A stretch of 64,000 bases of DNA from Thermoanaerobaculia bacterium (GTDB lineage: Bacteria; Acidobacteriota; Thermoanaerobaculia; UBA5066): positions 2,880,001-2,944,000 of the forward strand of contig CAVRAY010000001.1 in assembly GCA_963719225.1 (NCBI GenBank), written 5' to 3'. The notes below the pieces were generated by a model. The model saw nothing but the letters and a program-made list of their open reading frames with translations. It was not told the DNA's origin and ran no database searches. Shown one piece after another: positions 2,425-63,271 of the stretch. Each line of letters opens with the position of its first letter. Position 1 is the stretch's first letter. The position numbers and the translations under genes were made by a program.

Positions 2425-2524
2425 CGACGCAGCAGCAGGCCGGTGGTGTCGTTGCCGCTGCGGGCCAGAGGGGCGATCCGTCGCGCGCGACTTCGGCGCA
2501 CCCGGCACATTCACCTTCTAGGAA
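2390..2524. repeat. Inverted pair of the dispersed TTCTAAGAA motif
   Basis: TTCTTAGAA 2390-2398 (minus copy) and caccTTCTAGGAA core 2516-2524 (plus copy). Confidence 0.75.
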
Positions 2525-25543: not shown

Positions 25544-25615
25544 GGTGAGATCTTACCGGCTGAGATCACTTCGGGCACGCCGGTTGCACGGGACGTCGTG
25601 TCCCGTGCCCTCCAG

Positions 25616-28603: not shown

Positions 28604-28646
28604 AACGCTGCTCCGCGTCATTCGGGCGGACGTAGACTTCCCCGCC

Positions 28647-29084
28647 ATGAAGATCTCTCTCGGCTGCGACCACGCCGGCTTCCGGTACAAAGAGAAAATC
28701 AAGACGCACCTTCTCAACTTGGGTCATGAGATCAAGGACTGCGGCACGTTCTCGGCCGACATGGTGGACTATCCCGTGTTCGTCCGGCCCGCCGCCGAGG
28801 CGGTCGCCGGCGGCGAATGCGCGCGCGGAATCGTCCTGGGCGGCTCGGGAAACGGCGAGGCCATCTGCGCGAACAAGGTCCGCGGGGTGCGCTGCGCGCT
28901 GTGCTGGAACGAGGCGACCGCGAAAGCCTGCCGCGAGCACAACGACGCGAACGTCCTCTCCCTCGGCGAACGGATGATCCCCCTGGAGACGGCGCTCGCG
29001 ATCGTCCGGATCTTCCTCGAGACGCCGTTCGAGCCGGGTGCCGGCGGCGGCCGCCACGCCCGCCGCATCGCGATGCTCGAATGA
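28647..29084 (+). CDS. rpiB: Ribose-5-phosphate isomerase B
   Basis: GCDHAG, DYP, GSGNG, ANKVRGVRCA, HNDANVL, RH.RRI. Confidence 0.96.
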   Translation: MKISLGCDHAGFRYKEKIKTHLLNLGHEIKDCGTFSADMVDYPVFVRPAAEAVAGGECARGIVLGGSGNGEAICANKVRGVRCALCWNEATAKACREHNDANVLSLGERMIPLETALAIVRIFLETPFEPGAGGGRHARRIAMLE

Positions 29085-29121
29085 TCCGTCGCGGGCGCGG
29101 TCCTGCTATCGTCCGCCGCCC

Positions 29122-30756
29122 GTGATCGCACTCTCCGAAATCAACAAGCAGTACGGCCGCCAGGTCCTCTTCGTCGACGCCTCCTTTCAGCTCAACGCCG
29201 GCGAGAAGACCGGCCTCGTCGGCCCGAACGGCTCCGGCAAGACGACGATCTTCCGCCTCATCACGGGCGAGGAGCACGCCGACGACGGGGACGTCTCCGT
29301 GCCGAAGAAGCTCTCGATCGGTTACTTCAAGCAGGAGATCGACGAGATGGAAGGTTGGCCCGTTCTGGACGAGGCGATCGCGGGCAGCGGCCGCCTCGGC
29401 GACCTCCATCACGAGCTCATCGGGCTCGAGCACGCGCTCGCGGACCCGGAACGCGCGGCCGAGGCAGAGCACCTCCTGGCGCGGTTCGGCGACGTGCAGT
29501 CCGAGTACCAGACGCTCGGCGGGTACGAGCTGGAGGCGCGTGCCCGCGAGGTCCTCCACGGGCTCGGTTTCGACGACGCGCGCGTCGACGGGGACGTCGG
29601 AGAGCTTTCCGGCGGCTGGAAGATGCGCGTCGCGATGGCGAAGGTGCTCCTCGGCAGACCCGACGTTCTCCTCATGGACGAGCCCACGAACCACCTCGAC
29701 ATCGAATCCATCATCTGGCTCGAGGAGTACCTCGCGGGCTTTCCGGGCTCTCTCCTCATGACCTGCCACGACCGGGACTTCATGAACCGCGTGGTCACGA
29801 AAGTCGTCGAGATCGACGCCGGAGAGCTCGTGACGTACTCGGGGAACTACGACTTCTACGAGCGGGAGAGGACCCTGCGAGACGCGCAGCGGGAAGCCGC
29901 CTTCGCCCGGCAGCAGGCGATGCTCGCGAAAGAACAGCGCTTCATCGAGCGCTTCCAGACGCATGCCGCGAAGGCCGCCCAGGTCCAGAGCCGGGTCAAG
30001 AAGCTCGAGAAGATCGAGACGATCGAGCTCCCGAAAAAGCGCGCCGTCGTGCGTTTCGACTTCAAGCCGCCGCCGCGCTCCGGCGACGACGTGGCGATCC
30101 TCGAGAAGATCTCGAAGGCCTACGGGACGAGACGCCTCTACACCGGGTTCGATTTCCTGGTCCGGCGCGGCGAGCGCTGGTGCGTCATGGGCGTGAACGG
30201 CGCCGGGAAGACGACGCTCCTGAAGATGGTCGCGGGGGTCCTCCCTCCCGACGGCGGCACGGTACGGCTCGGCGCGAGCGTGAGGCTCGGCTATTTCTCG
30301 CAGCAAGCCCTCGATCTCCTCGACCCCGGGCTGACCGTCCTCGAGCAGGTCCAGAAGGACTTCCCCGCGGCCGGTCTCGGCGTATTGCGCGCGCTCGTCG
30401 GCGCGTTCCAGTTTTCCGGCGACGACGTGGACAAGAAGGTCCGCTTCCTGTCCGGAGGCGAGAAGTCGCGCCTCGTGATGGCGCGGATGCTCTTCGATCC
30501 TCCGAATTTCCTCGTTCTCGACGAGCCCACGAACCATCTCGACCTCGCCACGAAGGAAATGCTCGTCGTGGCTCTCTCGAAGTTCGACGGGACGATGCTC
30601 TTCGTCTCGCACGACCGCACGTTCCTGCGCGGCCTCGCGAACCGTGTCCTCGAGCTGACCGGCGAGGACGGCACGGCCGCGCCGCACGCGTACGGAGGGT
30701 CCTACGTGGAGTGGGTGGCGCGCACCGGCCACGAGGCTCCCGGCGTGCACGCATAA
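29122..30756 (+). CDS. ABC-F family ATP-binding protein
   Basis: Two NBDs (GPNGSGKT, LSGGW, DEPTNHLD; GVNGAGKT, LSGGEK), no TM segments. Confidence 0.95.
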   Translation: MIALSEINKQYGRQVLFVDASFQLNAGEKTGLVGPNGSGKTTIFRLITGEEHADDGDVSVPKKLSIGYFKQEIDEMEGWPVLDEAIAGSGRLGDLHHELIGLEHALADPERAAEAEHLLARFGDVQSEYQTLGGYELEARAREVLHGLGFDDARVDGDVGELSGGWKMRVAMAKVLLGRPDVLLMDEPTNHLDIESIIWLEEYLAGFPGSLLMTCHDRDFMNRVVTKVVEIDAGELVTYSGNYDFYERERTLRDAQREAAFARQQAMLAKEQRFIERFQTHAAKAAQVQSRVKKLEKIETIELPKKRAVVRFDFKPPPRSGDDVAILEKISKAYGTRRLYTGFDFLVRRGERWCVMGVNGAGKTTLLKMVAGVLPPDGGTVRLGASVRLGYFSQQALDLLDPGLTVLEQVQKDFPAAGLGVLRALVGAFQFSGDDVDKKVRFLSGGEKSRLVMARMLFDPPNFLVLDEPTNHLDLATKEMLVVALSKFDGTMLFVSHDRTFLRGLANRVLELTGEDGTAAPHAYGGSYVEWVARTGHEAPGVHA

Positions 30757-30764
30757 TCGGCCGA

Positions 30765-32504
30765 ATGTCGCGCGCGCGGTTCGCGGCGGCCCTCGCCGCC
30801 GTCGTCCTTCTCGCTTTGCTGGGAGGCGAACGCGCGCGGTTCTCTCTCTGGACGACCTCGGACGAGCCTGCGCACCTCGCGGCCGCGCGCGAGTGGCGTT
30901 ACGGGCCCGGCATGGTCTCGAACTTCGAGCACCCGGTCCTCATGAAGGTCCTCGCGGGAGTCTTCCTCCCGCGCGAGGTCCCCGCCATGGAGATCGACGA
31001 GACGCGCACCGGCCGCACGCCCATGCCCTTCGTGTTCGCCGGCCTCGCCCTCGTCAGCGGCCTTTTCGCGCGCGCCCTCGCGGGAGACCTCGCGGGCATC
31101 GCCGCCGCCGCGCTCGTCGCCGTCGAGCCCACGCTGCGCGGCCACGGCGCCCTCGTCCAGAGCGACGCCCTCGTGACGTTCTTTCTGGTGGCGGCGGCGC
31201 TCGCGCTGGAATACGCGGCGCGCGGCGCGCGCCGCGAACGCGAGGCGAGAACGTGGCTCGTGGCGAGCGGCTTCCTCTACGGCTTCGCGATGGCGTCGAA
31301 ATATTCTGCTTTCCCGTTCCTCGCGGTGTTTGCTGCGATTGCTGCCTTTCGGCTCGCATCAGGCAGTTTTTCTTTGAACGTACGCCCCAGCCCTCTTCAC
31401 CTTCTAAGAAATTCTCTTCGTGCTCTCCCTTCGGTCCTTCTCTTTTTTGTAATTCCCGCCCTCGTGACCCTCTTTCTCATCCAATTCCTCACATTCTTCG
31501 GCACGAGTGATACCGCGTTTCGCGCGGGAATCGCGCACGAGTTCTCCGGCCTCCCGCAGGAGCGCGCCGTGGTCGCGCTGGCGCGCACGTTCCCGAAGTC
31601 GATCGCGGCGTACGGCGCGGGACTGCTCTTCGTGCAGGGCGTCGCAGGCCCCGGCGAACGCTTCAACTACTTCTTCGGTGAGATCTCGGGCCGGGGACAT
31701 GCGCTCTATTTCCCCGTCGCCCTGGGAATCAAGCTCACGACGGCGAGCGTCCTTCTCGTCCTCGCGGCGCTCGTCGCTGCGGTCGTTCTCGCCGCCCGGG
31801 GTTCGCGCTTCCGGAGCCTTCTCGCCGCACGCACGTCTCTTCCGGCCGTGCTCGGCGGAGCCTATCTCCTCGCGGCGTGCGCCTCGAACGTGAACATCGG
31901 CGTCCGCCACGCATTACCCGTGGTCCCGTTCGCGATCGTCGCCGCGGTCGGGACCCTTCGGACGCTCGTTCTCCGGCGCCGGACGCTCGCGCTCGCGCTC
32001 GCCGCCGTCGTCCTCGCCGCCACGGGTGAGGCCGTACTGCGGCTCGGCCGGGAGATCTCGTTCGGGAATCTCCTCTGCGGAGGCCCCGCCGGCATTCCGG
32101 CAATCCTCTCGGACTCGAACGTGGACTGGGGTCAGGAGGAAGGGAAGATCTTCGAGCGCGTCCGGCAGGGCGACCTGGGGCGCGTCGGCCTCGCGTCGCT
32201 CATGGTGGACGAGTCGGGCGCGCGTGCCGTGGGAATCGCGGGACAGGTCACGGCGCCGGACGCGCCGGTCGACACCGTCTTTTTCTCGCGTTTCCTCTGG
32301 GACAACGCGGCCGCGATCGAGAAGAACACGGAAACCTGGTCGAAGTTCGTCTGGCTGCGCGGCTGGCTGCCGCCGCTCAGGCGGGGGCTCGAAGCACGCG
32401 CGGTTTCGATCGAGCCCTTCGGGGATTCGCAGCTCCTGATCCGCCTCCGCCCCGAGACCCCGACTACGGCTTCCCCGTCCGTGCCGCCCGCGCCCACGCG
32501 GTGA
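30765..32504 (+). CDS. GT-C (ArnT/PMT-like) membrane glycosyltransferase
   Basis: TSDEPAH, EHPVLMK, SKYS, IGVRHALP, DSNVDWGQ; many TM helices. Confidence 0.8.
   Translation: MSRARFAAALAAVVLLALLGGERARFSLWTTSDEPAHLAAAREWRYGPGMVSNFEHPVLMKVLAGVFLPREVPAMEIDETRTGRTPMPFVFAGLALVSGLFARALAGDLAGIAAAALVAVEPTLRGHGALVQSDALVTFFLVAAALALEYAARGARREREARTWLVASGFLYGFAMASKYSAFPFLAVFAAIAAFRLASGSFSLNVRPSPLHLLRNSLRALPSVLLFFVIPALVTLFLIQFLTFFGTSDTAFRAGIAHEFSGLPQERAVVALARTFPKSIAAYGAGLLFVQGVAGPGERFNYFFGEISGRGHALYFPVALGIKLTTASVLLVLAALVAAVVLAARGSRFRSLLAARTSLPAVLGGAYLLAACASNVNIGVRHALPVVPFAIVAAVGTLRTLVLRRRTLALALAAVVLAATGEAVLRLGREISFGNLLCGGPAGIPAILSDSNVDWGQEEGKIFERVRQGDLGRVGLASLMVDESGARAVGIAGQVTAPDAPVDTVFFSRFLWDNAAAIEKNTETWSKFVWLRGWLPPLRRGLEARAVSIEPFGDSQLLIRLRPETPTTASPSVPPAPTR
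31402..31410 (+). repeat. Copy of the dispersed motif in an AT-rich patch of the GT-C gene
   Basis: ctcttcaccTTCTAAGAAattctc. Confidence 0.75.
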
Positions 32505-34488
32505 GCGGCCAGCCCTGCCGGCGCGCGAGCTCGAGTCCGCGCGCGAAGCCTTCGCGCTGACCCTCCGGCATGCACGAGAGGTCGCCGGGCGGAGCAGCCA
32601 TCGAACGGACGAAGAGGATCCAGGGATGGCAGGAAAGCGAAGATGAGGAAGACGAAGAGGAAAAAAGAGTCTTCTTGGAAAGGAAAGAGAGGGCGGCCGC
32701 GGCATCTGAATCGCCGGCGCCGCTGCTGGCGCCCGCGCCTCTGCCCCCGCCGAGGCGCAGCGATTCTGCGACCAGGGCCACCGCGCGAGGGTCATTCGAA
32801 GAATCCGAATCCGAATCCTCGCCCTTCTTCCCGAGCAGCTCTTCTCCGAGTACCAGCGCCCGCGCGTACCTCTTCGTGTCGATCGCCCGGATCGTCTGGT
32901 CACGCAGAGCTTCGGTCCAGGGATCCGAAGATCCCGTTCTCTCTTCCTCTTCCAAGAAATATTCTCTTCCCCACCCGACACGAACCGGCCGCAGCGCAAG
33001 GACGAGCGCGGGCGCAGGCTCCTTCGGCAACGTCGGTCTGAAGGGCGGATCGAGCTGCCGGAGTCCTTCACGTGCCAGGACTTCGGATGCCGCCCCCCGC
33101 AGCTTCGCGGCGAGGAGCAGAGCGTGGACGCGGATCGGCGACCAGGAAGGCGTGAGCGAGAGGTGATGGGGCCCCGTGGCGCGAAGGACGCCGTCGGCCC
33201 CGCGCTCGACCTCGTATTCGGTGCCTGCCGCACGGGCGTCGGAGATCGGCTGCGGCGGGACGACGGACGAGAGCGCGTAGACCGCGGGAAACGGAACGAG
33301 GGCGCCGAGAAGATTCACGCCGGCTCCGAGGACGAGCGCGAACGCTCCCGCGAGGCGCATGGGACGACCGGAGCCCGAGCACGCCAGACCTGCGAAGGCG
33401 AGGAGCGGAGGCAGCGCAGGCAGGAGGAGGCGCGGCCCCCATCCCGCCTGTCCGTCCCACGCCCACCAGGCGGACGCGGTGAGGAGAAGAGAAGCGGCCG
33501 AAGCGCAAAGGGCGGACGCGAGCCGCGCGTCGCGCCTGCGAAGCGCAAGAAACCCCAACGGCGCGAGAAGGACGATCGGCGCATACCAGAACAGCCCTTT
33601 GTTCGGGAGCACCGTGAGCCTGAGGAGTCCCGTGAAGAAGGGATACGTGAACGTCTCCCCGGCATACCCGCCGAAGAGCTTGCCGAAGCGAATGAGCTCG
33701 AAGAACGCCCAGAGAAGGAGAAGAGCTGAGAATGAAAAGAACATCGGCCATGGCGCCGCAGGACGGCGAGAGTCCGCCGCGGCCCGGCGCCTGTTTCTCT
33801 TCCCTTCTAGGAAATCTTTCTCTCCCTCTTTTCTTCTTCCGAAGAGTGCGCACGCGAGAAGCGGCGCGACCGCGACGAGCAGGAGGGTCTTCGTGAGAAT
33901 CGCGAAGCCCGCCGCGACCCCGAGGACGATCTGCCAGCGCCGCGAGGCGGGCTCCGCGCGCATCGTGACGACGGCGAGCACCGCGAGCGCGACGCACGCC
34001 GCCTGAAGAGGCTCGCCGTAATCGCTCGCCGCGTAGCCCCAGAGCGGCGTCGCGAGGACGAGGCCGGCTCCCGAGGCCGCGGCCCAGCCGGGCGTCGCAC
34101 CGAGAAGACTCACGGAACGCGCCGTGGCCCACGCGGCGGCGGCCAGGCACGCGATCGGGAGGAGGACGAAGAGGGGCGCCGAGGGCGTCGCGGGCGCCGT
34201 TGCGCGGACGAGGCGCGTCGCGGTCACGGGGACGGCCTCCGCGAGCGACAGCCCCATGCCGTAGCGCGAAACCGCGTCTCCCGCCGGCCGCCGCGGAGCG
34301 TTGGAGAACTCGCGGGAGACGCCGATCTCCAAAAAGCGTGCGACGGCGGCGGCGGCCGAGAGCATCTCCCTGCCGTCGGGGATGAGGCCGTAGGAGCGCG
34401 TGTCGACGGTCGCGGCGAGGACGAGGACGACGCCGAACGCCGCAGCCCGCGCGGCGCGCGGCACGGGCGGCGTTGCGGCGGCGCTCAT
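32464..34488 (-). CDS. Putative GT-C-type membrane protein with low-complexity inserts
   Basis: Multiple TM helices; SRYG.G.S, Y.EP, KGLFWYAP, W.W.G...WGPRLL.P motifs. Confidence 0.75.
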   Translation of the reverse strand: MSAAATPPVPRAARAAAFGVVLVLAATVDTRSYGLIPDGREMLSAAAAVARFLEIGVSREFSNAPRRPAGDAVSRYGMGLSLAEAVPVTATRLVRATAPATPSAPLFVLLPIACLAAAAWATARSVSLLGATPGWAAASGAGLVLATPLWGYAASDYGEPLQAACVALAVLAVVTMRAEPASRRWQIVLGVAAGFAILTKTLLLVAVAPLLACALFGRRKEGEKDFLEGKRNRRRAAADSRRPAAPWPMFFSFSALLLLWAFFELIRFGKLFGGYAGETFTYPFFTGLLRLTVLPNKGLFWYAPIVLLAPLGFLALRRRDARLASALCASAASLLLTASAWWAWDGQAGWGPRLLLPALPPLLAFAGLACSGSGRPMRLAGAFALVLGAGVNLLGALVPFPAVYALSSVVPPQPISDARAAGTEYEVERGADGVLRATGPHHLSLTPSWSPIRVHALLLAAKLRGAASEVLAREGLRQLDPPFRPTLPKEPAPALVLALRPVRVGWGREYFLEEEERTGSSDPWTEALRDQTIRAIDTKRYARALVLGEELLGKKGEDSDSDSSNDPRAVALVAESLRLGGGRGAGASSGAGDSDAAAALSFLSKKTLFSSSSSSSSLSCHPWILFVRSMAAPPGDLSCMPEGQREGFARGLELARRQGWPLTAWARAARTGKP
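32672..33813. repeat. Three copies of the dispersed motif
   Basis: TTCTTGGAA 32672-32680 (-), TTCCAAGAA 32950-32958 (+), TTCTAGGAA 33805-33813 (+), all within purine/pyrimidine-skewed tracts. Confidence 0.7.
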
Positions 34489-34514
34489 GCCGCGATTATG
34501 CGAGAGGGCGGCCT

Positions 34515-36380
34515 TCAGGCCGCGCGGGGGATCGAGTCGAGCGCGGCCTTGGTCTCCTCACGGCCCGTGCGCCAGTGCCTCGCCCAGCGCGGAATCGCGT
34601 CGGCGAGGACCAGGAGGACGGACGCCATCATCACGGCCGTCAGACCCGAGTTCAGCCAGCCCTTGAACGCGTCCCCCGGGCGGACGGACCGTGCGAGAGG
34701 AAGAAAGATGTCGCGGATCGACAGCGCCCCGCCCGCGAGCGTCGTCGTCCCGACGAAGAGGAGTGGCACGATCGTCACCAGGGCGTAACGCGAGCGGCCT
34801 TCGTTCACGATCACGGTCGTGGCGACGGTGAGCGCCACGACCGCGAGGAGCTGGTTCGCGACGCCGAACATGGGCCAGAGCGACTGGATCGAACCGGTGA
34901 AGATGAACCAGCTCCAGCCGCCCACGATGAGAGCCGTCGCGAAAATGCTGCCCGGCAGCCAGTCCGTTCTCGCCATGCGCGGGAAGGCGCGCCCGGCGAG
35001 CTCCTGGACGAGGAAGCGGCCGATGCGCGTTCCCGTGTCGATCGTCGTGAGGACGAAGAGCGCCTCGAACATGATGACGAAGTGGTAGAAGTAGCTCATG
35101 AGGCTCTTGGCGCCGGGCAGATCGCCGAAGATCTGGGCGATCCCGACGGCGAGCGAGACCCCGCCCCCCGTTCGCCCGGCGAGGCGCGGCTCGCCCACGA
35201 GCGCCGCGAGCTCCGACAGGCGGCCGCCGTCGAGATTCATCTTTGCGGCGAGCGCCTCGAACGCCTGCGGCGAGAGGTTGATCCGGAAGTAGTCCGCCGG
35301 AAAGAGCGACGACGCGGCGACGAGCGCCGTCACGCCCACGAGGCTCTCCATGAGCATCGCCCCGTAGCCGATGGCCCGCGCGTGGCTCTCCTTGTCGAGC
35401 ATCTTGGACGTTGTTCCCGACGACACGAGCGCGTGAAAGCCCGAGATGGCGCCGCACGCGATCGTGATGAAGACGAACGGGAAGAGGGCGCCCGGCACGA
35501 GCGGCCCGCCGCCGGACGCGAACCCGCTGACGGCCGGCGCCTTCATCTCGGGGCGCACGAGGAACACCGTGACGACGATTACGGCGATCGTTCCGACCTT
35601 CATGTAGCTCGAGAGGTAGTCGCGGGGACAGAGGAGCATCCACACGGGCAGGACCGACGCGAGAAACCCGTACGCGGCGATGGCGGCCGTGAGCGACGTC
35701 TCCGAAAGCGTGAAAAGGTGCGACGCACCCGCCCACGGATGGCCCGGCGCGAAGAGTCCGCCGAGGACGACGCACGCCATGAGCAGCGACACGCCGATGG
35801 CCGACGCTTCGGCCACGCGGCCCGGCCTGATCCGGTACATGTAGAGGCCCATCAACAGCGCGATCGGGATCGACGCGGCGATCGCGAACGTGCCCCAGGC
35901 GCTTTCGGCGAGCGCCTTGACGACGATAAACCCGAGAACCGCCATCGCGACAACGACGATGAAGAGAATCGCGATCATCGCGACGATGCCGCTCAGGGGG
36001 CTGATCTCGTCGCGTGCGATCTCCGCGAGCGAACGGCCGCCGCGCCGAACGGAAGCCCCGAGGATGACGAAGTCCTGCACCGCACCCGCGAGGCAGACGC
36101 CGAACACGAGCCACAGGAGGCCGGGGAGCCATCCGAACTGGGCCGCGAGGACCGGCCCGATGAGCGGCCCGGCGCCCGAGATCGCGGCGAAGTGATGGCC
36201 CCAGAGGACCCAGCGGTTCGTGGGATGAAAATTCTGGCCGTCGCGGCGCGTGTGCGCCGGCGTCGGTCGCCGGTCGTCCAGGCCGATCACGCGACGCGCG
36301 AGGAATCCGCTGTAGAAGCGGTAGAAGATCGCGTAGACGCCGAGCGCTCCGAGGAGCAGCCAGAACGCGTTGACCGTCAC
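34515..36380 (-). CDS. cstA: Carbon starvation protein A family transporter
   Basis: GHHFAAISGAGPLIGP, PRDYLS, TIACGAISGFH, WPMFGVANQ. Confidence 0.95.
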   Translation of the reverse strand: MTVNAFWLLLGALGVYAIFYRFYSGFLARRVIGLDDRRPTPAHTRRDGQNFHPTNRWVLWGHHFAAISGAGPLIGPVLAAQFGWLPGLLWLVFGVCLAGAVQDFVILGASVRRGGRSLAEIARDEISPLSGIVAMIAILFIVVVAMAVLGFIVVKALAESAWGTFAIAASIPIALLMGLYMYRIRPGRVAEASAIGVSLLMACVVLGGLFAPGHPWAGASHLFTLSETSLTAAIAAYGFLASVLPVWMLLCPRDYLSSYMKVGTIAVIVVTVFLVRPEMKAPAVSGFASGGGPLVPGALFPFVFITIACGAISGFHALVSSGTTSKMLDKESHARAIGYGAMLMESLVGVTALVAASSLFPADYFRINLSPQAFEALAAKMNLDGGRLSELAALVGEPRLAGRTGGGVSLAVGIAQIFGDLPGAKSLMSYFYHFVIMFEALFVLTTIDTGTRIGRFLVQELAGRAFPRMARTDWLPGSIFATALIVGGWSWFIFTGSIQSLWPMFGVANQLLAVVALTVATTVIVNEGRSRYALVTIVPLLFVGTTTLAGGALSIRDIFLPLARSVRPGDAFKGWLNSGLTAVMMASVLLVLADAIPRWARHWRTGREETKAALDSIPRAA

Positions 36381-36425
36381 CGCCGCGAGTGTACCGTCGG
36401 CCGAAGGAGGCGGCCGTCTCTCCCT

Positions 36426-37055
36426 TTACTTCGTGCGCTCGAGCGTGCCCTCGATCCCGAGCGCGATCGGCAGCCGGACGTGCGCGACCTTGTTCTCCAT
36501 GACGAGCGTGTAGATCCCCGGCTCGAACCGGCCCTTCGGTGACTCGAAAAAGAGGTGCCCCCAGGCCAGCGTCTCGTGGTCGACCGTGACCTGGTCGAAA
36601 ACGATCCCTTCGCCCGGCATGGTGAAGAATCCGAGCCGTTCTTCCTTGATGCGTCCGGGGAAATACCCGTCGAGCGGATCGCGTATGACGCGCGCCTGAA
36701 GCAGCATGCGGCTCAGGTCGGGAATCCCGTGGGCCATCTTCTTCTGGCTCGGGAGGGGCATCCGCGTTCCGTCCGGCCCGAGCAGACTGACGTCCTCGCG
36801 ATAGATCTCGACCGGTTGGCTGCCCGTCGCGGAAATGCAGGTTTCGAGCAGGATCCAGCGGCTGTCGAGGTGAGTTTGCGCGTGCTTGTATCCCACGACG
36901 ACCTGGACCACCTCGTCCCGGTACCTCGAAACGGTACGACCCATCTTCTTCACGTTCGGGGACTCGAGGTCGGCGTGGAGACTCGCGACACTCGAGAGAA
37001 GAAGAGTGGCTGCCATCAGAAAGGCCGGACCCGACCGCCGCGGGAATGGATTCAA
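36426..37055 (-). CDS. Hypothetical exported protein
   Basis: GGAGG RBS before TTG 37055; signal-like MAATLLLSSVASLHA; globular composition. Confidence 0.65.
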   Translation of the reverse strand: MNPFPRRSGPAFLMAATLLLSSVASLHADLESPNVKKMGRTVSRYRDEVVQVVVGYKHAQTHLDSRWILLETCISATGSQPVEIYREDVSLLGPDGTRMPLPSQKKMAHGIPDLSRMLLQARVIRDPLDGYFPGRIKEERLGFFTMPGEGIVFDQVTVDHETLAWGHLFFESPKGRFEPGIYTLVMENKVAHVRLPIALGIEGTLERTK

Positions 37056-37179
37056 GATGATTCCTCCGGTGCTCCTCGAAGAGGAGACCTCGATTGCCCC
37101 TTGCACGGAGCATACCGTCGGGAGGACACCTTTTCCGGACGCTTCGCCTCGGGCCAGCCGGAGTAGGATCGCCCCCGAC

Positions 37180-37626
37180 ATGGACGGCAATTCGCTCGCC
37201 GGGGCCTGGAAGCTGCTCGTTTTCGAGTTCCGCTCCGAAGGACAGGTCGTATTTCCATTCGGAACGAACGTCATCGGACTGTGCCTCTATGACGCGACCG
37301 GCCACATGGCATTGCAGATCATGCGCGGAGACCGCCCCCGATTCGCCGCGAACGACCAGCAGCTGGGCACGCCGGCCGAGGTCGCGGCCGCCTTCTTCGG
37401 ATGTCTCGCCTACGCGGGCACGTACGTCGCCGACGAGGTCCACGGCGTCGTCGTGCATCACGTCTCACAATCCCTCTTCCCGAACTGGGTCGGCACGGAT
37501 CAGATCCGCTTCTACCGGATCTCCGGAGACCGTCTCATCGTGAGCGCGCCGACGCAGCAGGTCGGGGGACACCTCATGGACGTGATGCTCGTGTGGGAGC
37601 GGCTCGCTCCCGTCGCGGGGGCCTGA
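37180..37626 (+). CDS. Lipocalin-like domain protein
   Basis: LAGAWKL, G...YD..GHM..QIM, AYAGTY, SLFPNWVG..Q.R, LVWER. Confidence 0.85.
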   Translation: MDGNSLAGAWKLLVFEFRSEGQVVFPFGTNVIGLCLYDATGHMALQIMRGDRPRFAANDQQLGTPAEVAAAFFGCLAYAGTYVADEVHGVVVHHVSQSLFPNWVGTDQIRFYRISGDRLIVSAPTQQVGGHLMDVMLVWERLAPVAGA

Positions 37627-37631
37627 CGCAC

Positions 37632-39293
37632 GTGCAGAGATTCGTCCTTCCCCGCCACGTCTCGCGACGACTGCCGCTCTGTCGCCGGACGGGTCCGTGT
37701 CCGCCGGACGAGGACATCCGCTTCACCGTACTCCTCCATGCCAAGGACATGCGCATGCTCCGGGAAGCGGCAGCTGCCGTCTCGGACCCGAAGAGCTCCG
37801 TCTATGGGCGCCACCTTTCCGCCGACGAGGTACGCACGCTCGTCGCGCCCGGGTATCAGGATCTCGACGCGGTGCTGGCCTTCCTCAGAGACGCCGGCCT
37901 CACCGTGGACGGCGTCGCCGGGGCGCGTACCGCGGTCCAGGGCCACGGCCCGGCGGAGAGGATCTCGCGCGCGTTCGACGTTCCCATCGGCACCTACGCG
38001 CCGCCGCGCACCGTATCGCCTCGCGTGCGGCGCGCGATCGCGGCCGAGCGGGACCCCACGATTCCGGCGTCGCTCGCGTCCGTGATTCGCGGCGTCGCGG
38101 GACTCAACACCCTTCCCGCGGCCCGGCGCTTCCCGCCGATCTTCGCCCCGCCCCGCTCCAAGGTACCGCGGCGCGGACCCGCCGCGGCTCGCGGGCCCGG
38201 CGGAGGCTTCACGCCCGACGAGATTCGCGCGGCGTACGCCCTCCCCGATCCGGCCACGGCGGGAGGCCGCGGTGAGCGCGTGGCCATCCTCGAGTTCGGA
38301 GGCGGATTCTCGGGTGACGACTTCGCGACGTTCTGCACGCACTACGGCCTGCCTGTGGGCGACGTCACGGACGTCTCGGTCTCGGGGGCCAAGAACGACT
38401 ATCAGGGCAGGACGGGCGACGCCGACGTGGAGGTCGCGCTCGACATGGACTGGGTGCGAGGCACGGCGCCGCAGGCGGACCTGGACCTGTGGTGGACGCC
38501 CAACACGGATACGGGCTGGGTCGATTTCCTCAACGCGCTCCTCGATGCGCCGGACGCCCGCCGCCCCTCGATCGTCTCGATCTCATGGGGAATGCCCGAG
38601 GACGGCTTCGCGACGTCCCGGAGGTACGACCAGACCCGCCAGCTCTTCCTTTCGTGTGCGCTCCTCGGCATCACATTCGTCTGCGCCTCGGGAGACGCCG
38701 GCGCCGGCGACATCCTTCCGGAGGACGCCGCCTTCGACGGCCAGCGCCACGTGGACTTTCCGAGCGTCGTCCCGGAGGTGACCGCGGTCGGGGGTACGAA
38801 GCTCGTCCCGAAGGGCAGCTCCTTCGCGGAGAGCGCCTGGAACGACGGCCCGAGTCGCGGCGCGACGGGCGGGGGCTTCTCGAGGTTCGTGGCGGTCCCC
38901 GCGTGGCAGAGGGCGGCTCTGGGCGCGCGCCGCGGGGTGACGGGTCGGGGCATTCCCGATGTCGCGGCGGTCGCGTCGCCCGATCCCGGCCTCTCGATCT
39001 TCGTGAGAAAAAAGTGGACCGCCGCCGGAGGAACCAGCGTGGCGGCGCCGATCTGGTCCGGAATCCTCGCGCACGTGAACGCCGCGCGCGCGGAGGCAGG
39101 GAAACCCCGCATGGGAGCCGCGAACGCGGCCCTCTACGACCTGGCTCGCGGCGTCTCGCCTTTCCGGGACGTCACGCAGGGTGACAATTCGTACGGCGGC
39201 GTTTCGGGATATCCGGCGACGAAAGGGTGGGACCCGACCACGGGCCTCGGTTCCGTCGATACCGGAAAGCTCGTGAAGAAGCTCCTCGCCTGA
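37632..39293 (+). CDS. S53 sedolisin/kumamolisin-family peptidase with prodomain
   Basis: EVALD, SISWG, SGDAG, GRGIPDV, GGTSVAAP, GWDPTTGLGS. Confidence 0.93.
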   Translation: MQRFVLPRHVSRRLPLCRRTGPCPPDEDIRFTVLLHAKDMRMLREAAAAVSDPKSSVYGRHLSADEVRTLVAPGYQDLDAVLAFLRDAGLTVDGVAGARTAVQGHGPAERISRAFDVPIGTYAPPRTVSPRVRRAIAAERDPTIPASLASVIRGVAGLNTLPAARRFPPIFAPPRSKVPRRGPAAARGPGGGFTPDEIRAAYALPDPATAGGRGERVAILEFGGGFSGDDFATFCTHYGLPVGDVTDVSVSGAKNDYQGRTGDADVEVALDMDWVRGTAPQADLDLWWTPNTDTGWVDFLNALLDAPDARRPSIVSISWGMPEDGFATSRRYDQTRQLFLSCALLGITFVCASGDAGAGDILPEDAAFDGQRHVDFPSVVPEVTAVGGTKLVPKGSSFAESAWNDGPSRGATGGGFSRFVAVPAWQRAALGARRGVTGRGIPDVAAVASPDPGLSIFVRKKWTAAGGTSVAAPIWSGILAHVNAARAEAGKPRMGAANAALYDLARGVSPFRDVTQGDNSYGGVSGYPATKGWDPTTGLGSVDTGKLVKKLLA

Positions 39294-39320
39294 GCGCACC
39301 AAGCCGCCTCGGGGAATTCT

Positions 39321-41803
39321 TCAGGGCGCGCTTCTCACGAAGGCGGCGTTGACGGGGGCCGGCATCGGGGAGTCGGCGCCGCGGACGCTCTTCCAGATCG
39401 CCTCGTTGAGGGGCACGTCGGGGGCGGCGTCTTCCCTCGAGAAGTCCCACGTGTCCGCAAGAGCCTGCATCGGCGCGCCGCGCGGATTCGTCTCGTAGAA
39501 CGGGATCGCCGTTTCGCGGTGGACGAAGGGCGCCGGGTCCGGCACGTCTGCGAACGCGGCCGTCATAGGCGTCGCGCCCGCGTCGTGCTGCGACATGGGC
39601 GGAAGCCCGAGGATGAGCTCCATCGTCCGGAGCATGGACGTCGTCGAATACATCGTCGAGTCCACGGCTCGGCGCCGCGTGTACGGCGACACGACGAGCG
39701 CGACCGTGCGATGCGCGTCGACGTGGTCGGGTCCGTTCTGGGCATCGTCCTCGACGACGAAGACCGCCGTCTCGCTCCAGAAGGGCGAGAGCGAGAGCGC
39801 CTCGACGAGGCGGCCCAGGGCGACGTCGTTCTCGGCCACCATCGCGCGCGGCGTCTTGCCGCCCTTCTTCGTCCCCACGGTGTGATCGTTGCCCAGCCGC
39901 ACGATCATGAGCCGCGGCATCTCCTTCTTCTTCACGTACTGGGCGAATTCCTTCAGCCAGATGTCGACGCGCGCGTTGTCGAGGATTTCCGTGTCGAATC
40001 CCGGGTAGTAGGGATTCGTGTTCGCCCTGAGCGCGCCCTCCTGACCCTGCGAGAGGCCCGCCTCGAGCGGCGTTTCGGATTCGGAGGCGATGCCCGTGAA
40101 CTCGCCGTAATTGCGCAGCGAGAGCCCGGCGCGCGCGGCCGCGTCCCAGAGGTAGCCGTTCGTCGGAAACGCCGCGGGATCGTTCCCTTCGAAGAGGTAG
40201 GAGAAGCCGTGGCTGCCGTAGCTCGGAGGCCAGACCTTCTCCACGAAATCCGTCGCGTACGCGCCCATGGACCAGTTGTGGCCGTCGGCGGAGACCTCGG
40301 CATCGCAGTAGAAGTTGTCGAGCGTGACGTACTCCTCGGCGAGCGCGTGCGCGTTCGGCGTCACGTCGCGCCCGAAGAGGACGAGCGACGGGTCGCCGTT
40401 GCCCTTCGGGAGGTCGCCGAGGACCTGGTCGTACGTGCGGTTCTCGCGGACGACGTAGACGACGTGCTTGATCGGCGACGTGCCGCCGGGCGCGGCCGGC
40501 ACGACGGCCGACGCGCGCACGGTGAGGGATCCCCGCGCGGCGGGCCGGCGGTTCGCGTACGCCCGCGTGGTGAGAGATGCGAGCTGGCGACCGTCGGGAA
40601 CCGGACGCGCGAGACGCTGCCGGGGATCGTCCGCGTGAGGCGCGTCGGGTCTCCGAGCTTCGGCTTCGTCGGATCCGGCCCGCCCTTCGAATTCTCCCAC
40701 GAGCCGCCGCCCTTCGCATTCGCGACCCAGAGGGTCCTCCCGTCGCGCGAGAGGGCGAGCGCGTCGGGATACCAGCCGGACGGGATGAATCCCTTCGCGC
40801 GTGCCTTCGCGGGACCGAGGGAAAGATCCACCACCGCCACGGCGTCGTCGTCGGCATTCGCGACGAAGAGCCTCTTCCCGTCGCGCGAAAGGGCCAGCGC
40901 GTTCGGCGTCGAGCCGTCGGGCATCGCGTCCGACGAGGGCGTCCCCGGCCCGTCCGGACCGAGCGCGACCGAGATCTGCCGCACGACTCCCCGCGACGCG
41001 ACGTCCACGGCTGCGACGAGGTTCCGGTTCGCCTGGGCGACGAAGAGCGTTCTTCCGTCGGGCGAAAAGACGAGATCTCCCGGATGGTCCGCCGTCTTCA
41101 CCGAGCCGGTCGCGATCGCCTTTTCCGGATCGACGAACGTCACGGCCGCTCCGCCCCATGCCGCGAGCGCGAGGATCTTTCCATCCGGGGAGAAGACCGG
41201 CCGGTAGGGATGGATGCCCGCGGAAACCCCCGCGACGACCTGCCTTGCGGCGAGATCGACCTTCACGACGTCGTTCGCGAGGATGCGCGCGGCCCAGAGA
41301 GTCTTGCCGTCCGGTGAGATGGCGAGCCCTCCCGGCGTCGCGTCGACTTTCGGCCCGTCCTCCTTGCGCTTCAGCGAGATCGGCTCCTCGGCGACGAAGC
41401 GGTCCCGTTCCAGGCGATAGACGAGGACGTTTCTCCCTTTGGCGCCGGCGACGTACGCCCGCGCGCCGTCCGGCGAGAGCGCCATGCCGAGCCACGAATG
41501 CGGCAGGGGCTGCTTGAAAAGGGACTTCCCCGAGGCGGCGTCCAGCAGGTGGAGCGACTGGTCATCCGCGCCGGTGCAAAGCGCGACGACCCGGCTTTCA
41601 TCGGGCGCGAGCGCGAGCGCGAACGGGTAAGGCGAAACCTCGGTCTGCGTGCCCGTCGGGGTCAGCAGGCGCCCGTTCGGGAGCTGGACCTCGCCGGTCG
41701 GCAGGCGCGACGGTACGACGCGGTCGGCTACGAGGAGCGAAGAAGAAAGAGAAAGAGAGAATGAGAATCTGCTTAGAAAGGAAAGAAAGAACGAGACGCG
41801 CAT
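39321..41803 (-). pseudogene. YVTN beta-propeller plus phosphoesterase (alkaline phosphatase superfamily) protein split by a single frameshift near 40603
   Basis: N-half (signal, LPNG, propeller repeats, GWYP) and C-half (IKHVVYVVRENRTYDQV, SADGHNW, NDHT, EDDAQNGPDHVDAHR) lie in different frames; one extra C at GTC CGG restores continuity. Confidence 0.8.
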
Positions 41804-42602
41804 ATGGGGAAGACTAGCGCGCTCGACAGCTCATTCGCCCTAAATCGATATCCGCGCGACGCCCAGGACCTTCCGGCTCTTTCTCTCCTGAACGAAAGCC
41901 ACGGCGTGTAGCTCATTTCTCTTCCAGTCCGCTTTGAGGCGAAGCGGGCGCTCCGTCTCGAAAAGTCCTCCCGGTCGAACCGTGCTCACGACCGCGAGTT
42001 CGCGAACGACGGCGCCGTGCACGAGGCGCCGCCCCGCGTTCTCGCCCCGCGGCACGTCGCTCGCGAGCCCGTCCTCGGTGATCGCGAGGAGGAGCTCGGC
42101 CGTATCGCCAGGCGTGACGGGCGGCAACGCGCTGACCCGGACCCGCAGGGCGGCCCCCTGCCCGTTCGCCGACGGCAGGATCTCGATCGACGCCTTCGGC
42201 AGACGGGCGGCCTCCTCGACCGCGTGCCGCGCCTTCTTCTCGTCGCTCCCGACGAGCTCCGTGCGCCCATCCACGACGACCTGCGGCGTGTAGACGCGGC
42301 TTTCGCCCCAGGCGCGGCCGTAGTCGCTCTGGCGCGCGCTGAACGACTCGGAGGAGTAAGGATCGGCCCACCCGAGGCGGTTCCAGTAATCGACGTGCAA
42401 GGACAGTGGCACGACCTCGGCACCGGCGACCGGCTGGGTCCGCTCGAGGCGCACGAGCGCGAGGTCGGCCGGAGGGCAGCTCGAGCAACCCTCGGACGTG
42501 AACAGCTCCACGAGGACCGGAATGCGGGCGGATCGAGGTCCCTCGGCGCTCGTCGAGCCGGCGGCGAGTACGAGCACCGCCGTCAAGATGATTCTCTTGG
42601 AA
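41770..42602 (-). repeat. Two copies of the dispersed motif in signal-peptide coding regions
   Basis: TGCTTAGAA 41770-41778 and CTCTTGGAA 42594-42602. Confidence 0.6.
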
Positions 42603-45709: not shown

Positions 45710-46954
45710 ATGGCGAGAGGGGACCGCGCGGACTTGAAGGATCTCGCCATGCTCTTTCTCCGCCTCGGCGCCACGGCTTTCGGCGGCCCCGCGGCTCACA
45801 TCTCGATGATGGAGCACGAGGTCGTGACGCGGCGCGGCTGGATGACGCGCGAGGAGTTCCTCGACCTCCTCGGCGCGACGAATCTCGCGCCGGGGCCGAA
45901 CTCCACGAAGATGGCGCTCTTCATCGGCCACGCGCGCGGGGGCTGGCCGGGCTTTCTCCTCGCCGGCCTCGGCTTCGTCCTGCCCGCGACTCTCCTCGTC
46001 ACCGTCTTCGCGTGGGCCTACGTGCGCTTCGGCTCCCTTCCCGCGTTCCCGCATTTCTTCGAGGGCATCAAGCCCGTCGTCCTCGCGCTCATCGCGCACG
46101 CCCTCGTCAGCCTCGGACGCACGGCGGTGAAGAACAAATTCTTCCTGGCGCTCGGGCTCGCCGCGCTCGCTGCGAGTTTCTTCGTCCATGAGCTTCTGCT
46201 GTTGCTCGTTGCGGGTTGTCTCTCGACGGGGGTGATGGTGTTGGAAGATTTGCTTAGAAAGGGTAAGAGGAGCGGCAAAGCTCCGGCATCGTCGGAGCGC
46301 GTCGACGGCGTTGAAGGTGCAGGTGATGCCAAGCGCGGCGACGTGTCGGGAGGCGCGCCTGCCCACCCCCAACCCCCTTCTAAGAAATCTTCTCTTCTCT
46401 TCCTTCCCCTCTTCTCCCTCGGCGTCCCTCTCTCGTCTTTCTCCCTAACCAGCCTTCTCCTCTTCTTCCTGAAGACCGGTGCGGTGCTGTTCGGCAGCGG
46501 CTACGTGCTCCTCGCCTACCTGAAAGCGGATCTCGTCGAGCGCTGGCACTGGCTCACGAGCGCGCAGCTTCTGGATGCCGTCGCGGTAGGCCAGTTCACG
46601 CCGGGGCCGCTCTCGTCCACCGCGACGTTCATCGGCTACGTGCTCGGGGGCCTGCCGGGGGCGTCCGTCGCGACGCTCGGCATCTTCCTTCCCGCCTTCG
46701 TCCTCGTCGCGGTCATGGGGCCGTTCGTGCCCCGTTTGCGGCAGTCGAGACTCCTCGGCGCTTTCCTCGACGGCGTCAACGTCGCGGCGCTCGCGCTGAT
46801 GGGCTACGTCACTCTCCAGTTCGCGCGGCCCGCTCTGACGAACGGCCCGACGGTGGCCCTTTTCCTCGCCAGCGTGGCGCTTCTCTCGACCGTGAGGATC
46901 AACGCGGCCTGGCTCGTCCTCGCGGGCGGGATCCTCGGGGTCGTTTTCGGCTGA
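45710..46954 (+). CDS. chrA: Chromate ion transporter (CHR family, long chain)
   Basis: LG..AFGGP, PGPNST, FGSGYVL, GQFTPGP. Confidence 0.93.
   Translation: MARGDRADLKDLAMLFLRLGATAFGGPAAHISMMEHEVVTRRGWMTREEFLDLLGATNLAPGPNSTKMALFIGHARGGWPGFLLAGLGFVLPATLLVTVFAWAYVRFGSLPAFPHFFEGIKPVVLALIAHALVSLGRTAVKNKFFLALGLAALAASFFVHELLLLLVAGCLSTGVMVLEDLLRKGKRSGKAPASSERVDGVEGAGDAKRGDVSGGAPAHPQPPSKKSSLLFLPLFSLGVPLSSFSLTSLLLFFLKTGAVLFGSGYVLLAYLKADLVERWHWLTSAQLLDAVAVGQFTPGPLSSTATFIGYVLGGLPGASVATLGIFLPAFVLVAVMGPFVPRLRQSRLLGAFLDGVNVAALALMGYVTLQFARPALTNGPTVALFLASVALLSTVRINAAWLVLAGGILGVVFG
46244..46392. repeat. ~20-bp inverted repeats (dispersed motif) bracketing the ChrA linker
   Basis: GAAGATTTGCTTAGAAAGGG 46244-46263 versus CCCCCTTCTAAGAAATCTTC 46373-46392. 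Confidence 0.8.
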
Positions 46955-54307: not shown

Positions 54308-54367
54308 CGCGGGGGCGACTCGCGCCCATGGAAAGTCTAGAGATCGGGAAGCCTCGCCAGCGCGACC

Positions 54368-54384
54368 TTTAGAACTTCTTTAGG
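54368..54384. promoter_or_regulatory. Candidate OmpR/KdpE-type direct-repeat site
   Basis: TTTAGA-N5-TTTAGG (11-bp period) upstream of a minus-strand TAGACT -10 (54334-54339). Confidence 0.5.
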
Positions 54385-54702
54385 TCTTTCTCCGGACTTC
54401 CTTGGCCGCCGGGTGCGAGGGTTCAAATGTGGAAGAGCACCCGACCCCGCCGCGTTCCCTCGCCTCCTCTCTCGGGCTCCTCGCGACGTCGCTCCTCATC
54501 CTCTGCGGGGGCGCGCTCCTCGCGGTTTCCTTCGAGGGAACGCTCCGACCCGTGCTCGGAATCGCGGGTTTCGCGGTCTTCGTGCTCCTCTCCGCACGGG
54601 CACTGCGCGAGCTCGTTCTTCGGGGAGCGCTGATCGACGGGCCGCCGGGGCCCGCCGGCGAGCCCCTCCACGCATGGAGCGCGCTCCGGGTGCAGAGCCG
54701 CT

Positions 54703-59434: not shown

Positions 59435-60414
59435 TGAGCAACGAGACGATCGTCCGCCACCTCGCGGCCATGGGCACCGCCCTTGCCCTGACGGTGTCGG
59501 CCCCGACGCGCGACACGGCGCTCGCCGCAAGCGAGGCGGGCGTGAGGGAAATCGAGCGGATCGAGGCGCTCCTCTCCACCTGGCGCGACGACACTCCCCT
59601 CGCCCGGCTGAACGCCGCCGCGCCCGGGACGGCGGTCGAGTTGCCGCCGGAGCTTTTCGCGCTGCTGAAAAGAGTCTTCGAATGGAGAGAGAGAACCGTC
59701 GGCGCGTTCGACCCGACGGTAGCGCCTCTCGTGAGGGCATGGGGGCTTCGCGGCGGGGGGCGCATTCCGGGCTTCGCGGAGCTGCGCGCCGCGCGCCGGG
59801 TCACCGGCCCTTCCCTCTTCTCATTCGAAGAATCCTCTTCGTCCATCTCGCGGCGCGACTCCGCCGCCGGCATCGACGAGGGCGCCTGGGGCAAGGGCTG
59901 GGCGCTCGACAGGGCGGCCGCCGCAATGCGTGACGCGGGTGCGGTCGCGGGAGTCGTGGACCTCGGCGGGCAGATTCTCTCGTTCGGGGAAGAGACGCCC
60001 ATCAGCGTCGCGTCTCCTGTCGACCGGAACCGAACCGTCGCCAGGCTGCTTTTGAAGGACTCCTCCGCGTCGACGTCGGGAAACTCCGAGCGCGGCCTCG
60101 CCTTGAACGGCCGGCGCATCGGCCACCTCCTGGATCCGCGCACCGGCGAGCCCGCGCCCGCTTTCGGCTCGGTGACCGTCGTCGCGCCAACGGGTTTCGT
60201 CGCGGACGTCCTTTCGACGGCGTTCTTCGTGCTGGGACCGAAAGACGGTTTGGTGCTCTCGGAGCGCCTTCGGGCGGCAGGCGTCGCTCATGAAACGCTG
60301 TTTTTCTTGGAAGGTGAAGAGGGGAAACGGCTGCGGGTCTCCGCGCGTAGCCCGCGCACCGGACCTTTTCCTCTTACCCATTCTAAGAAATCTTCCGAAG
60401 GAGTCCACCCATGA
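59434..60414 (+). CDS. apbE: ApbE-family FAD:protein FMN transferase
   Basis: AMGT, GAFDPTV.PL..AWG, KGWALD, DLGGQ, STSG..ER, HLLDPRTG, AD.LSTA. Confidence 0.92.
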   Translation: MSNETIVRHLAAMGTALALTVSAPTRDTALAASEAGVREIERIEALLSTWRDDTPLARLNAAAPGTAVELPPELFALLKRVFEWRERTVGAFDPTVAPLVRAWGLRGGGRIPGFAELRAARRVTGPSLFSFEESSSSISRRDSAAGIDEGAWGKGWALDRAAAAMRDAGAVAGVVDLGGQILSFGEETPISVASPVDRNRTVARLLLKDSSASTSGNSERGLALNGRRIGHLLDPRTGEPAPAFGSVTVVAPTGFVADVLSTAFFVLGPKDGLVLSERLRAAGVAHETLFFLEGEEGKRLRVSARSPRTGPFPLTHSKKSSEGVHP

Positions 60415-60477
60415 ACAAACGTTCCTCGACGCGCTTCCGAGGTGCTGCCGCGATCGGCCTCTTTTTCTTTCTAAGCA
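60304..60477. repeat. Three copies of the dispersed motif
   Basis: TTCTTGGAA 60304-60312 (-), TTCTAAGAA 60381-60389 (+), TTCTAAGCA 60469-60477 (+). Confidence 0.75.
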
Positions 60478-63262: not shown

Positions 63263-63271
63263 TTCTAAGAA
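63263..63271 (+). repeat. Intergenic copy of the dispersed motif
   Basis: ctcttcaccTTCTAAGAAaactcc. Confidence 0.75.

What the first reader, a model, noticed from the sequence alone, without database searches (positions are those of the whole stretch)
46244..46392. Motif copies form same-polarity inverted pairs that bracket variable protein segments
Five times a minus copy is followed by a plus copy: 2390/2516 (126 bp), 5030/5148 (118), 32672/32950 (278), 46251/46378 (127) and 60304/60381 (77). In chrA the ~20-bp arms flank a hydrophilic ~45-aa linker segment (LLRKGKRSG...QPPSKKSS). Other pairs flank the N-terminal extension of the ABC ATPase and the C-terminal tail of ApbE. The interiors are unrelated to each other. 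Three spacings cluster at 118-127 bp. Inference: cooperative or looping paired protein sites, or relics of in-frame palindromic insertions analogous to Rickettsia RPEs.
Basis: partly seen in the sequence, partly recalled or inferred. Interest (0 to 1): 0.75.

Follow-up and report, generated by a model that had tools for sequence, protein, structure and literature searches.

The report
Paired DNA signals written into genes
One genus of uncultured Acidobacteriota carries about 900 copies of a short DNA signal, most of them in inward-facing pairs about 60-250 bases apart, kept even inside conserved genes and densest near the replication terminus, which likely mark paired binding sites for a still unidentified protein that would loop the chromosome.

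Summary
A polar motif (short pyrimidine run, TTCNAAGAA, longer pyrimidine tail) has 943 copies against about 62 expected. A minus copy is followed by a plus copy within 500 bp in 303 of 327 cases; the reverse order in 32 of 327. Modal spacing is 75-77 bp with a tail to about 250; 118-127 bp is no peak, and there is no 10.5-bp phase. 181 of 302 pairs lie inside one gene. Interiors are host sequence, often colinear with motif-free homologues, never found inverted (0 of 89), with no target-site duplication and no RAYT found; arms barely co-vary. So these are not RPE- or REPIN-like cassettes. Synonymous A/T bases in the cores diverge 3-4 times less than elsewhere. Density is about four times higher near dif than near the origin, also in ancestral genes. 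A strict pair pattern occurs in 21 of 401 Thermoanaerobaculia genomes: 20 of 20 of this genus and 1 of 3 of a sister genus. Best reading (inferred): two-site anchors of an unidentified DNA-looping protein with a terminus bias. Main rival: an uptake-sequence-like drive. No binding protein was found.

The parts
45710..46954 (+). chrA, long-chain chromate transporter; the pair sits in its inter-domain linker
   Evidence: Pfam Chromate_transp, two stretches; pair present in 10 of 11 full-length genus sequences, spacing 76-139 bp
46251..46259 (-). left core of the focal pair (TTCTAAGCA on the minus strand)
   Evidence: 32.5 bits
46260..46377 (.). interior of the focal pair: GC-rich chrA linker sequence including the two short inner tracts; varies freely in length and sequence among species
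46378..46386 (+). right core of the focal pair (TTCTAAGAA)
   Evidence: 31.5 bits
46387..46420 (+). outer pyrimidine tail of the right arm (TCTTC/CTCTT repeats; edge not sharp)
   Evidence: sequence; genome-wide profile
2390..2600 (.). pair 2390(-)/2516(+) plus third site 2592(+); left site in the end of gntR, right sites in the ABC ATPase N-terminus
   Evidence: kept in G003 (335) and G019 (338)
5030..5156 (.). pair, 118 bp, inside gene 3455-5398
32672..32958 (.). pair, 278 bp, inside gene 32464-34488 (minus strand; weak PMT_2 hit, below cut-off)
   Evidence: 266 bp in G003, 281 bp in G019
   Evidence: 20 of 23 genus sequences keep it at 150 bp
60304..60477 (.). ApbE tail pair 60304(-)/60381(+), 77 bp, plus third site 60469(+)
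   Evidence: 21 of 23 genus sequences, spacing 41-149 bp, 77 bp in 8
63263..63271 (+). unpaired intergenic site; present in some species and missing in others
24525..42602 (.). further sites in this span without a >=14-bit partner: 24525(+), 31402(+), 33805(+), 41770(-), 42594(-); elsewhere also 3803(-) and the overlapping 57665(+)/57675(-)

Best explanation
These are pairs of a polar, genus-specific DNA motif kept at the DNA level inside and between genes and enriched toward the replication terminus, and they likely act as two-site anchors for an unidentified protein that would bridge both sites and fold the 60-250 bp between them into a loop. Shown: one arm is a short inner pyrimidine run, the near-palindrome TTCNAAGAA and a longer outer TCTTC-rich tail. 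Arms face inward. The interior is ordinary host sequence. Sites sit in permissive parts of proteins and in long-resident genes. Inferred: sites arise in place by substitution in folded domains, and by small expansions and tandem arm duplications in loops. Inferred: two inverted polar sites on a DNA U-turn lie side by side with two-fold symmetry, so a symmetric dimer or oligomer could hold both. The floor near 60 bp and the mode at 76 bp would reflect the tightest loop or footprint. The terminus gradient would reflect a chromosome-organising role that works like MatP/matS but is broader and pair-based. The protein, the loop and the function are untested.
For: Polarity: 303 of 327 vs 32 of 327. 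649 of 818 strong sites have an inward opposite-strand partner of >=8 bits against 26 of 818 outward. Arms follow a consensus, not their partner: identity 0.567 vs 0.566 permuted, 285 pairs. DNA-level constraint: synonymous A/T positions in cores differ in 34 of 172 vs 6712 of 10480 elsewhere (G003) and 13 of 60 vs 3416 of 3986 (G019); the tracts are also slower. Pairs persist while spacing changes: chrA 76-139 bp, ApbE tail 41-149 bp. No tie to promoters or terminators: intergenic pairs number 27/23/16/6 in 375/358/371/139 tandem/tandem/divergent/convergent gaps, and sense/antisense sites number 316/335. Terminus gradient: coding 25 to 7.5 and intergenic 84 to 14 sites per 100 kb from dif outward. 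In genes with an outgroup orthologue: 41 sites in 119 kb within 0.5 Mb of dif vs 12 in 141 kb beyond 2 Mb, at equal mean identity. Ori and ter were placed by dnaA, parS, dif, GC skew and KOPS skew.
Against: No candidate protein was found: MatP and the histone family PF00808 were not found in 5 genomes. HU/IHF copy number and the recognition helix of the dif-proximal ParB paralogue are the same in motif-free relatives. There is no helical phasing, which short rigid protein loops usually show (10.5 bp p=0.35; best p about 0.02 over 21 periods). Single sites are about as well kept as paired ones (13 of 18 vs 61 of 77; 13 of 15 vs 34 of 36). Sites are lost freely in single lineages, and 5 of 23 dif loci have no site nearby. 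In G060 the gradient is only partly seen: by hand count (100 of 104 places listed), 50 sites lie within 0.7 Mb of dif, but 16 lie in the first 0.27 Mb of the contig, far from dif. Partner arms show a slight excess similarity (p 0.02-0.055). Enrichment in resident genes fits an uptake-like drive equally well.
Confidence: 0.45

Rival explanations
1. Uptake-sequence-like molecular drive: a DNA uptake or transfer machine prefers fragments that carry two inward-facing sites (for example to thread a DNA U-turn), so mutation plus homologous recombination accumulates pairs without any benefit at each locus.
For: Shares the hallmarks reported for DUS/USS in PMC2817400 (passages seen): origin by mutation rather than insertion, both orientations, poorly conserved residues, scarcity in acquired genes. 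Here 28-34 sites per 100 kb lie in genes with close orthologues vs 2.7-11.5 in genes without. Residue divergence beside sites is about 0.28 vs 0.12. ComEC is present. Single sites are lost freely.
Against: DUS/USS are reported as evenly spread, and their pairs as intergenic terminators. Here cluster gaps have CV 1.22, 181 of 302 pairs are intragenic at 60-250 bp, and density falls about four-fold toward the origin. ComEC is also in motif-free relatives (5 of 5), so it does not discriminate.
Confidence: 0.22
2. Relics of a small mobile element (RPE, MITE or REPIN type) whose terminal repeats survive while the interior has decayed.
For: Inverted doublets with a mode of 76 bp resemble the 71-bp REPIN peak (PMC3116915, passages seen). 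In loops and intergenic gaps, arms or whole pairs are present/absent as blocks of about 14-130 bp. 3 of 26 outgroup comparisons show at least half of the interior as extra residues.
Against: 253 of 302 interiors are unique. In-domain pairs are colinear with motif-free homologues. No target-site duplication signal. No Y1 transposase found in a 97% complete genome. 651 of 943 sites lie in genes. The two block differences checked across the genus are losses in single lineages.
Confidence: 0.08
3. The arms pair with each other in RNA or single-stranded DNA to form a long stem read by a nuclease, recombinase or ssDNA-binding protein.
For: The cores pair in the predicted RNA fold in 69% of 109 real elements vs 57% with a swapped arm. 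Core identity p=0.021, gapped alignment p=0.055. The focal element folds with its arms paired (z -1.69).
Against: The true partner ranks at 0.45 on average among all arms and is in the top 5% for only 6.7% of pairs. Ungapped identity equals the permuted value. Interiors fold no better than controls (z -0.13 vs -0.10). A stem alone does not explain why only one order occurs.
Confidence: 0.1
4. A self-mark or repair signal: a modification, restriction or recombination enzyme that needs two inverted asymmetric sites treats marked DNA as self, or biases repair toward the motif.
For: Clade restriction and absence from acquired DNA. Need for two inverted sites is recalled from type III restriction enzymes (memory, not tested).
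Against: No enzyme was tested. Long soft tails and a ~76-bp mode are unlike methylase sites (inference). The viral scan gave 1 match, in a 34% GC contig that looks like chance. Site-specific inversion is not seen: 89 same, 0 opposite, 99 without match.
Confidence: 0.12

Closest known systems
DNA uptake sequences (Pasteurellaceae USS, Neisseria DUS)
   Same: Hundreds of copies of a short polar motif with soft flanks, arising in place, in both orientations, inside genes at permissive residues, scarce in acquired DNA (PMC2817400 passages).
   Different: Here about 80% of strong sites have an inward-facing partner within 40-300 bp, mostly inside genes, not as terminators. Distribution is clumped and terminus-biased. 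Uptake was not tested.
REPINs (REP doublets forming hairpins) with RAYT transposases
   Same: Inverted doublets with a preferred spacing near 70-76 bp (PMC3116915 passages).
   Different: Mostly intragenic, no hairpin-forming spacer, almost no arm co-variation, broad spacing tail, no RAYT found.
Rickettsia palindromic elements (RPE) / intragenic MITEs
   Same: Repeats embedded in frame in unrelated proteins, leaving recurrent peptides (FLEGEE, PSKKS, TFEEI, Ser runs).
   Different: RPEs are ~150-bp inserted elements with a conserved peptide (PMC10969869 passages). Here the interior is host sequence and often colinear with motif-free homologues.
MatP/matS terminus macrodomain system
   Same: A motif over-represented in the terminus part of the chromosome, bound by a dedicated protein (PMC4786541 passages).
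   Different: No MatP found. About 900 sites in a broad gradient, where matS is recalled as about two dozen palindromes confined to Ter (memory). Polar paired architecture.

Membership tests
REPIN/REP | Doublets of inverted repeats with preferred spacing | tested here: met
REPIN/REP | Mainly extragenic | tested here: not met
   651 of 943 sites in called genes; 181 of 302 pairs in one gene
REPIN/REP | Spacer and arms form a hairpin with compensatory changes | tested here: not met
   interior z -0.13 vs -0.10 control; arm identity equals permuted; only marginal excess
REPIN/REP | Associated RAYT (Y1 transposase) | tested here: not met
   PF01797 not found in G000, 97% complete; relatives not searched
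RPE / MITE | Conserved inserted cassette absent from homologues | tested here: not met
   (13 of 26 within 3 residues; 3 of 26 mostly extra)
RPE / MITE | Target-site duplication | tested here: not met
   27 of 285 with a repeat >=8 bp vs 25 permuted; arm edges are soft, so a short TSD could be missed
DUS/USS | Over-represented motif arising in place, in resident genes at permissive residues | tested here: met
DUS/USS | More even than random around the chromosome | tested here: not met
   gap CV 1.22; ori-ter gradient
DUS/USS | Preferential uptake of motif-bearing DNA | not testable with these tools
   ComEC present but also in motif-free relatives
MatP/matS | Motif enriched in the terminus region | tested here: met
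   G000; only partly in G060
MatP/matS | MatP protein | tested here: not met
   PF06303 not found in 5 of 5 genomes; E. coli control positive
Invertible segments (invertons) | Interior found in both orientations | tested here: not met
   89 same, 0 opposite, 99 no match among orthologous comparisons; reads of the same strain not available

The most novel reading that the evidence does not exclude
A clade-specific chromosome code unlike any family tested: about 300 convergent, polar site pairs written into the coding sequence of hundreds of genes, each pinning a 60-250 bp DNA U-turn through a new bridging protein, graded toward the terminus, and strong enough to reshape the proteome (Ser runs, Glu/Lys runs, fixed peptides in kinases and core enzymes).
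Probability: 0.4. Interest if true: 0.9.

Novelty: categorically new. Interest (0 to 1): 0.78.

Why it matters
Known genome-wide bacterial motifs are single sites (uptake sequences, KOPS, matS) or mobile hairpin cassettes (REPINs, MITEs). Here the unit is a pair with fixed polarity and a free interior, kept inside conserved genes across a whole genus and present at low density in a sister genus. That gives a natural gradient for tracing how such a code arises. If a protein bridges the pairs, it would be a new way to organise a bacterial chromosome. If it is a drive, it would be an uptake or transfer signal with a two-site geometry. Either way it explains odd peptides in this genus's proteins. 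The 'categorically new' rating rests on the architecture failing a defining feature of each family tested; the function may still turn out to be MatP-like or DUS-like. Nothing on it turned up in 9 literature searches of an open-access library that lacks most subscription papers.

Tried and rejected
93-bp spacing peak as a MITE family: it is a Ser/Thr kinase paralogue family with both sites inside the kinase domain. ~120-bp preferred spacing and 10.5-bp phasing: not found. Link to dif recombination: in G000 dif lies between two pairs, and 18 of 23 genus dif loci have a site nearby, but 5 have none and most share one or two ancestral sites, so this is not counted as evidence. Histone PF00808, MatP and Y1 transposase: not found. 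HU/IHF and ComEC: no difference between motif-bearing and motif-free genomes. A different 'dialect' of polar pairs in outgroups: none seen in 400 kb of G052 or 240 kb of G027 by a 6/7-mer scan that recovers the motif in G000. Gene-content comparison over 800 kb of one outgroup: no convincing clade-specific DNA-binding candidate, judged by eye; this covers only part of the genome. Sequencing runs: only small shares from relatives, contigs only, uninformative on inversion or expression. Viral scan: one match, probably chance. The origin-region comparison with the sister genus was not made, so the gradient in g11 is open.

Full report
Observation. The five pairs are at the stated coordinates. Two further pairs (4454/4789 and 59674/59824) and two third sites were missed. 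The window lies in G000, 4.75 Mb, 68% GC. All 80 titled loci that I saw from an exact pair-pattern scan of species genomes are Thermoanaerobaculia or Acidobacteriota bins; the scan stopped at 120 stretches.

The motif. An iterated weight matrix gives a core of (C)(C/T)TTC(T/G/A/C)AAGAA(A), a pyrimidine run about 10 bp inward and a TCTTC/CTCTT-rich tail of about 20-25 bp outward. There are 943 sites at >=14 bits against about 62 expected, and 818 against about 10 at >=18 bits. Minus-then-plus neighbours lie within 500 bp in 303 of 327 cases, plus-then-minus in 32 of 327. Of 818 strong sites, 649 have an inward opposite-strand partner of >=8 bits within 40-300 bp and 26 have one outward. Spacing has a median of 113 bp and a 5-95% range of 60-238 (285 pairs, the 17 pairs of 93 bp left out). 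The mode is 75-77 bp in G000 and among 120 exact matches from other species, whose pattern allowed only 68-98 bp. There is no convincing periodicity (10.5 bp p=0.35 and 10.0 bp p=0.036 among ten periods; best p about 0.02 among 21).

Context. With my own gene caller (4163 genes; it recovers the window genes that Pfam supports), 651 of 943 sites are in genes (316 sense, 335 antisense). Of 302 pairs, 181 are inside one gene. Intergenic pairs show no bias to divergent or convergent gaps. The encoded peptides recur (FLEGEE, LLRK, ISSK, PSKKS, TFEEI, Ser runs).

Not a cassette. 253 of 302 interiors are unique; the 93-bp group is a kinase paralogue family with sites inside the catalytic domain. The ApbE in-domain pair is kept at 150 bp in 20 of 23 genus sequences (three partial loci dropped) and aligns without insertion to four motif-free homologues. 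The tail pair is kept in 21 of 23 at 41-149 bp. The chrA pair is in 10 of 11 full-length genus sequences at 76-139 bp. Three distant chrA homologues (31-34% identity, perhaps not orthologues; one is from the unpublished G025, and the point stands on the other two) have a linker of similar length and no site. Against motif-free outgroups, 13 of 26 gene comparisons (kinase paralogues counted separately) differ by <=3 residues across the pair, and 3 of 26 have half or more of the interior as extra residues. There is no excess of flanking direct repeats, no inverted interior (89 same, 0 opposite, 99 unmatched) and no Y1 transposase found. Against a pure point-mutation story: in loops and intergenic gaps arms come and go as blocks and duplicate in tandem. 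In a nucleotidyltransferase-like gene (name from my reading of the sequence) the left arm sits in an expanded loop in 24 of 26 species, with up to four copies in one; it is missing in two species from different subclades, which reads as loss (two frameshifted loci dropped). An intergenic single site shows a similar patchy pattern.

Constraint acts on DNA. At synonymous positions that are A/T in G000, cores differ in 34 of 172 cases vs 6712 of 10480 elsewhere against G003, and 13 of 60 vs 3416 of 3986 against G019; both tracts are intermediate. Residues beside sites diverge more than average (about 0.28 vs 0.12). Sites are 2.5 to 12 times denser in genes with close orthologues than in genes without. 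Partner arms are no more alike than random arms without gaps (0.567 vs 0.566) and only marginally so in finer tests (p 0.02-0.055, mean rank 0.45). Interiors fold like controls. Singles are retained nearly as well as paired sites, which weakens an obligate-pair model.

Chromosome position. dnaA is at C2:326 kb and a parS-like palindrome at C2:333.8 kb. A dif-like site is at C1:2,037,575, conserved in 22 of 28 other genus genomes; GC and KOPS skews agree (the dif, parS and KOPS patterns are recalled). Density falls from dif outward: coding 25 to 7.5 and intergenic 84 to 14 per 100 kb, and near/far ratios are about 2 to 2.7 in every codon-score quintile. Among genes with an orthologue in outgroup G052, density is 34.5, 22.8, 8.6, 4.1 and 8.5 per 100 kb in successive distance bins at equal mean identity. 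Caveats: contig order is assumed, and the last ~270 kb of C2 look like a 78%-identical inverted copy from a related organism (two tmRNAs). G060 supports the trend only in part (hand count).

Distribution. A strict single-site pattern is abundant in 28 of 28 other genus genomes, at low level in most of sister genus g11, and at background in the rest of the order. A strict pair pattern is found in 21 of 401 class genomes: G000, 19 of 19 g1 and 1 of 3 g11. With the weight matrix, even g11 genome G042 shows a few pairs (3.7 sites per 100 kb near its terminus, against 33.8 in G000, 0 in 400 kb of G052 and 1 in 240 kb of G027). G025 (unpublished) is one negative row; no claim depends on it. An earlier AI note on another genome (e1-3532296) saw the same repeat and called it class-wide; my counts restrict it to two genera.

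Mechanism. Fixed polarity, a free interior, a floor near 60 bp and consensus-type arms point to recognition of double-stranded DNA by a protein that sees both sites (inference). Two inverted polar sites on a U-turn are related by a two-fold axis, which suits a symmetric bridging protein (inference). The terminus gradient favours chromosome organisation over uptake drive (0.45 vs 0.22), but the drive model explains resident-gene enrichment and free loss of single sites equally well. No protein was identified: MatP, histone PF00808, HU/IHF, ComEC and the dif-proximal ParB paralogue do not track the motif, and a partial gene-content comparison gave no candidate.

Comparison with known systems. 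It works most like DUS/USS in origin (PMC2817400, passages seen), like REPINs in geometry (PMC3116915, passages seen), like RPEs in its effect on proteins (PMC10969869, passages seen) and like matS in position (PMC4786541, passages seen). It fails a defining feature of each. Nine literature searches (listings only, apart from the four papers above) showed no description of it; the library lacks most subscription papers.

Verdict. A real, strongly non-random, genus-wide paired motif of unknown reader. Interest 0.78.

Noticed in passing
G000:C2 about 600-870 kb: Inverted, about 78% identical copy of C2 about 20-220 kb, with a second tmRNA; likely a chimeric join from a related organism, matching the 6% contamination.
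   Followed up: partly
L246 / G000:C1:2037865-2039524: A second parA-parB pair next to dif, present in all five genomes checked across the order, with its own conserved recognition helix distinct from the origin ParB.
   Followed up: partly
L250 (G147:C545): A short contig in a genome of another family carries the g1-type dif and three motif sites; probably a misbinned contig.
   Followed up: no
G000:C1:2295000-2320000; L218-L220: Tandem array of about ten Ser/Thr kinase paralogues, each with the 93-bp pair and a variable Ser-rich insert after it; a similar array occurs in sister genus g11.
   Followed up: partly
L275 (G012:C51): A second dif-like site in G012 with a different central spacer, possibly from a Xer-integrated element.
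   Followed up: no
window 52331-56679: Two adjacent 658-aa genes, about 82% identical at DNA level (tandem paralogues).
   Followed up: no
G000 genome-wide: A separate rare 9-mer family (ATATCGTTAG-like, about 22 copies against 0.1 expected) tops the over-representation list; it may be a CRISPR or other repeat.
   Followed up: no
window 57665-57683: Two overlapping opposite cores 10 bp apart in plus-then-minus order, one of the few outward arrangements.
   Followed up: no
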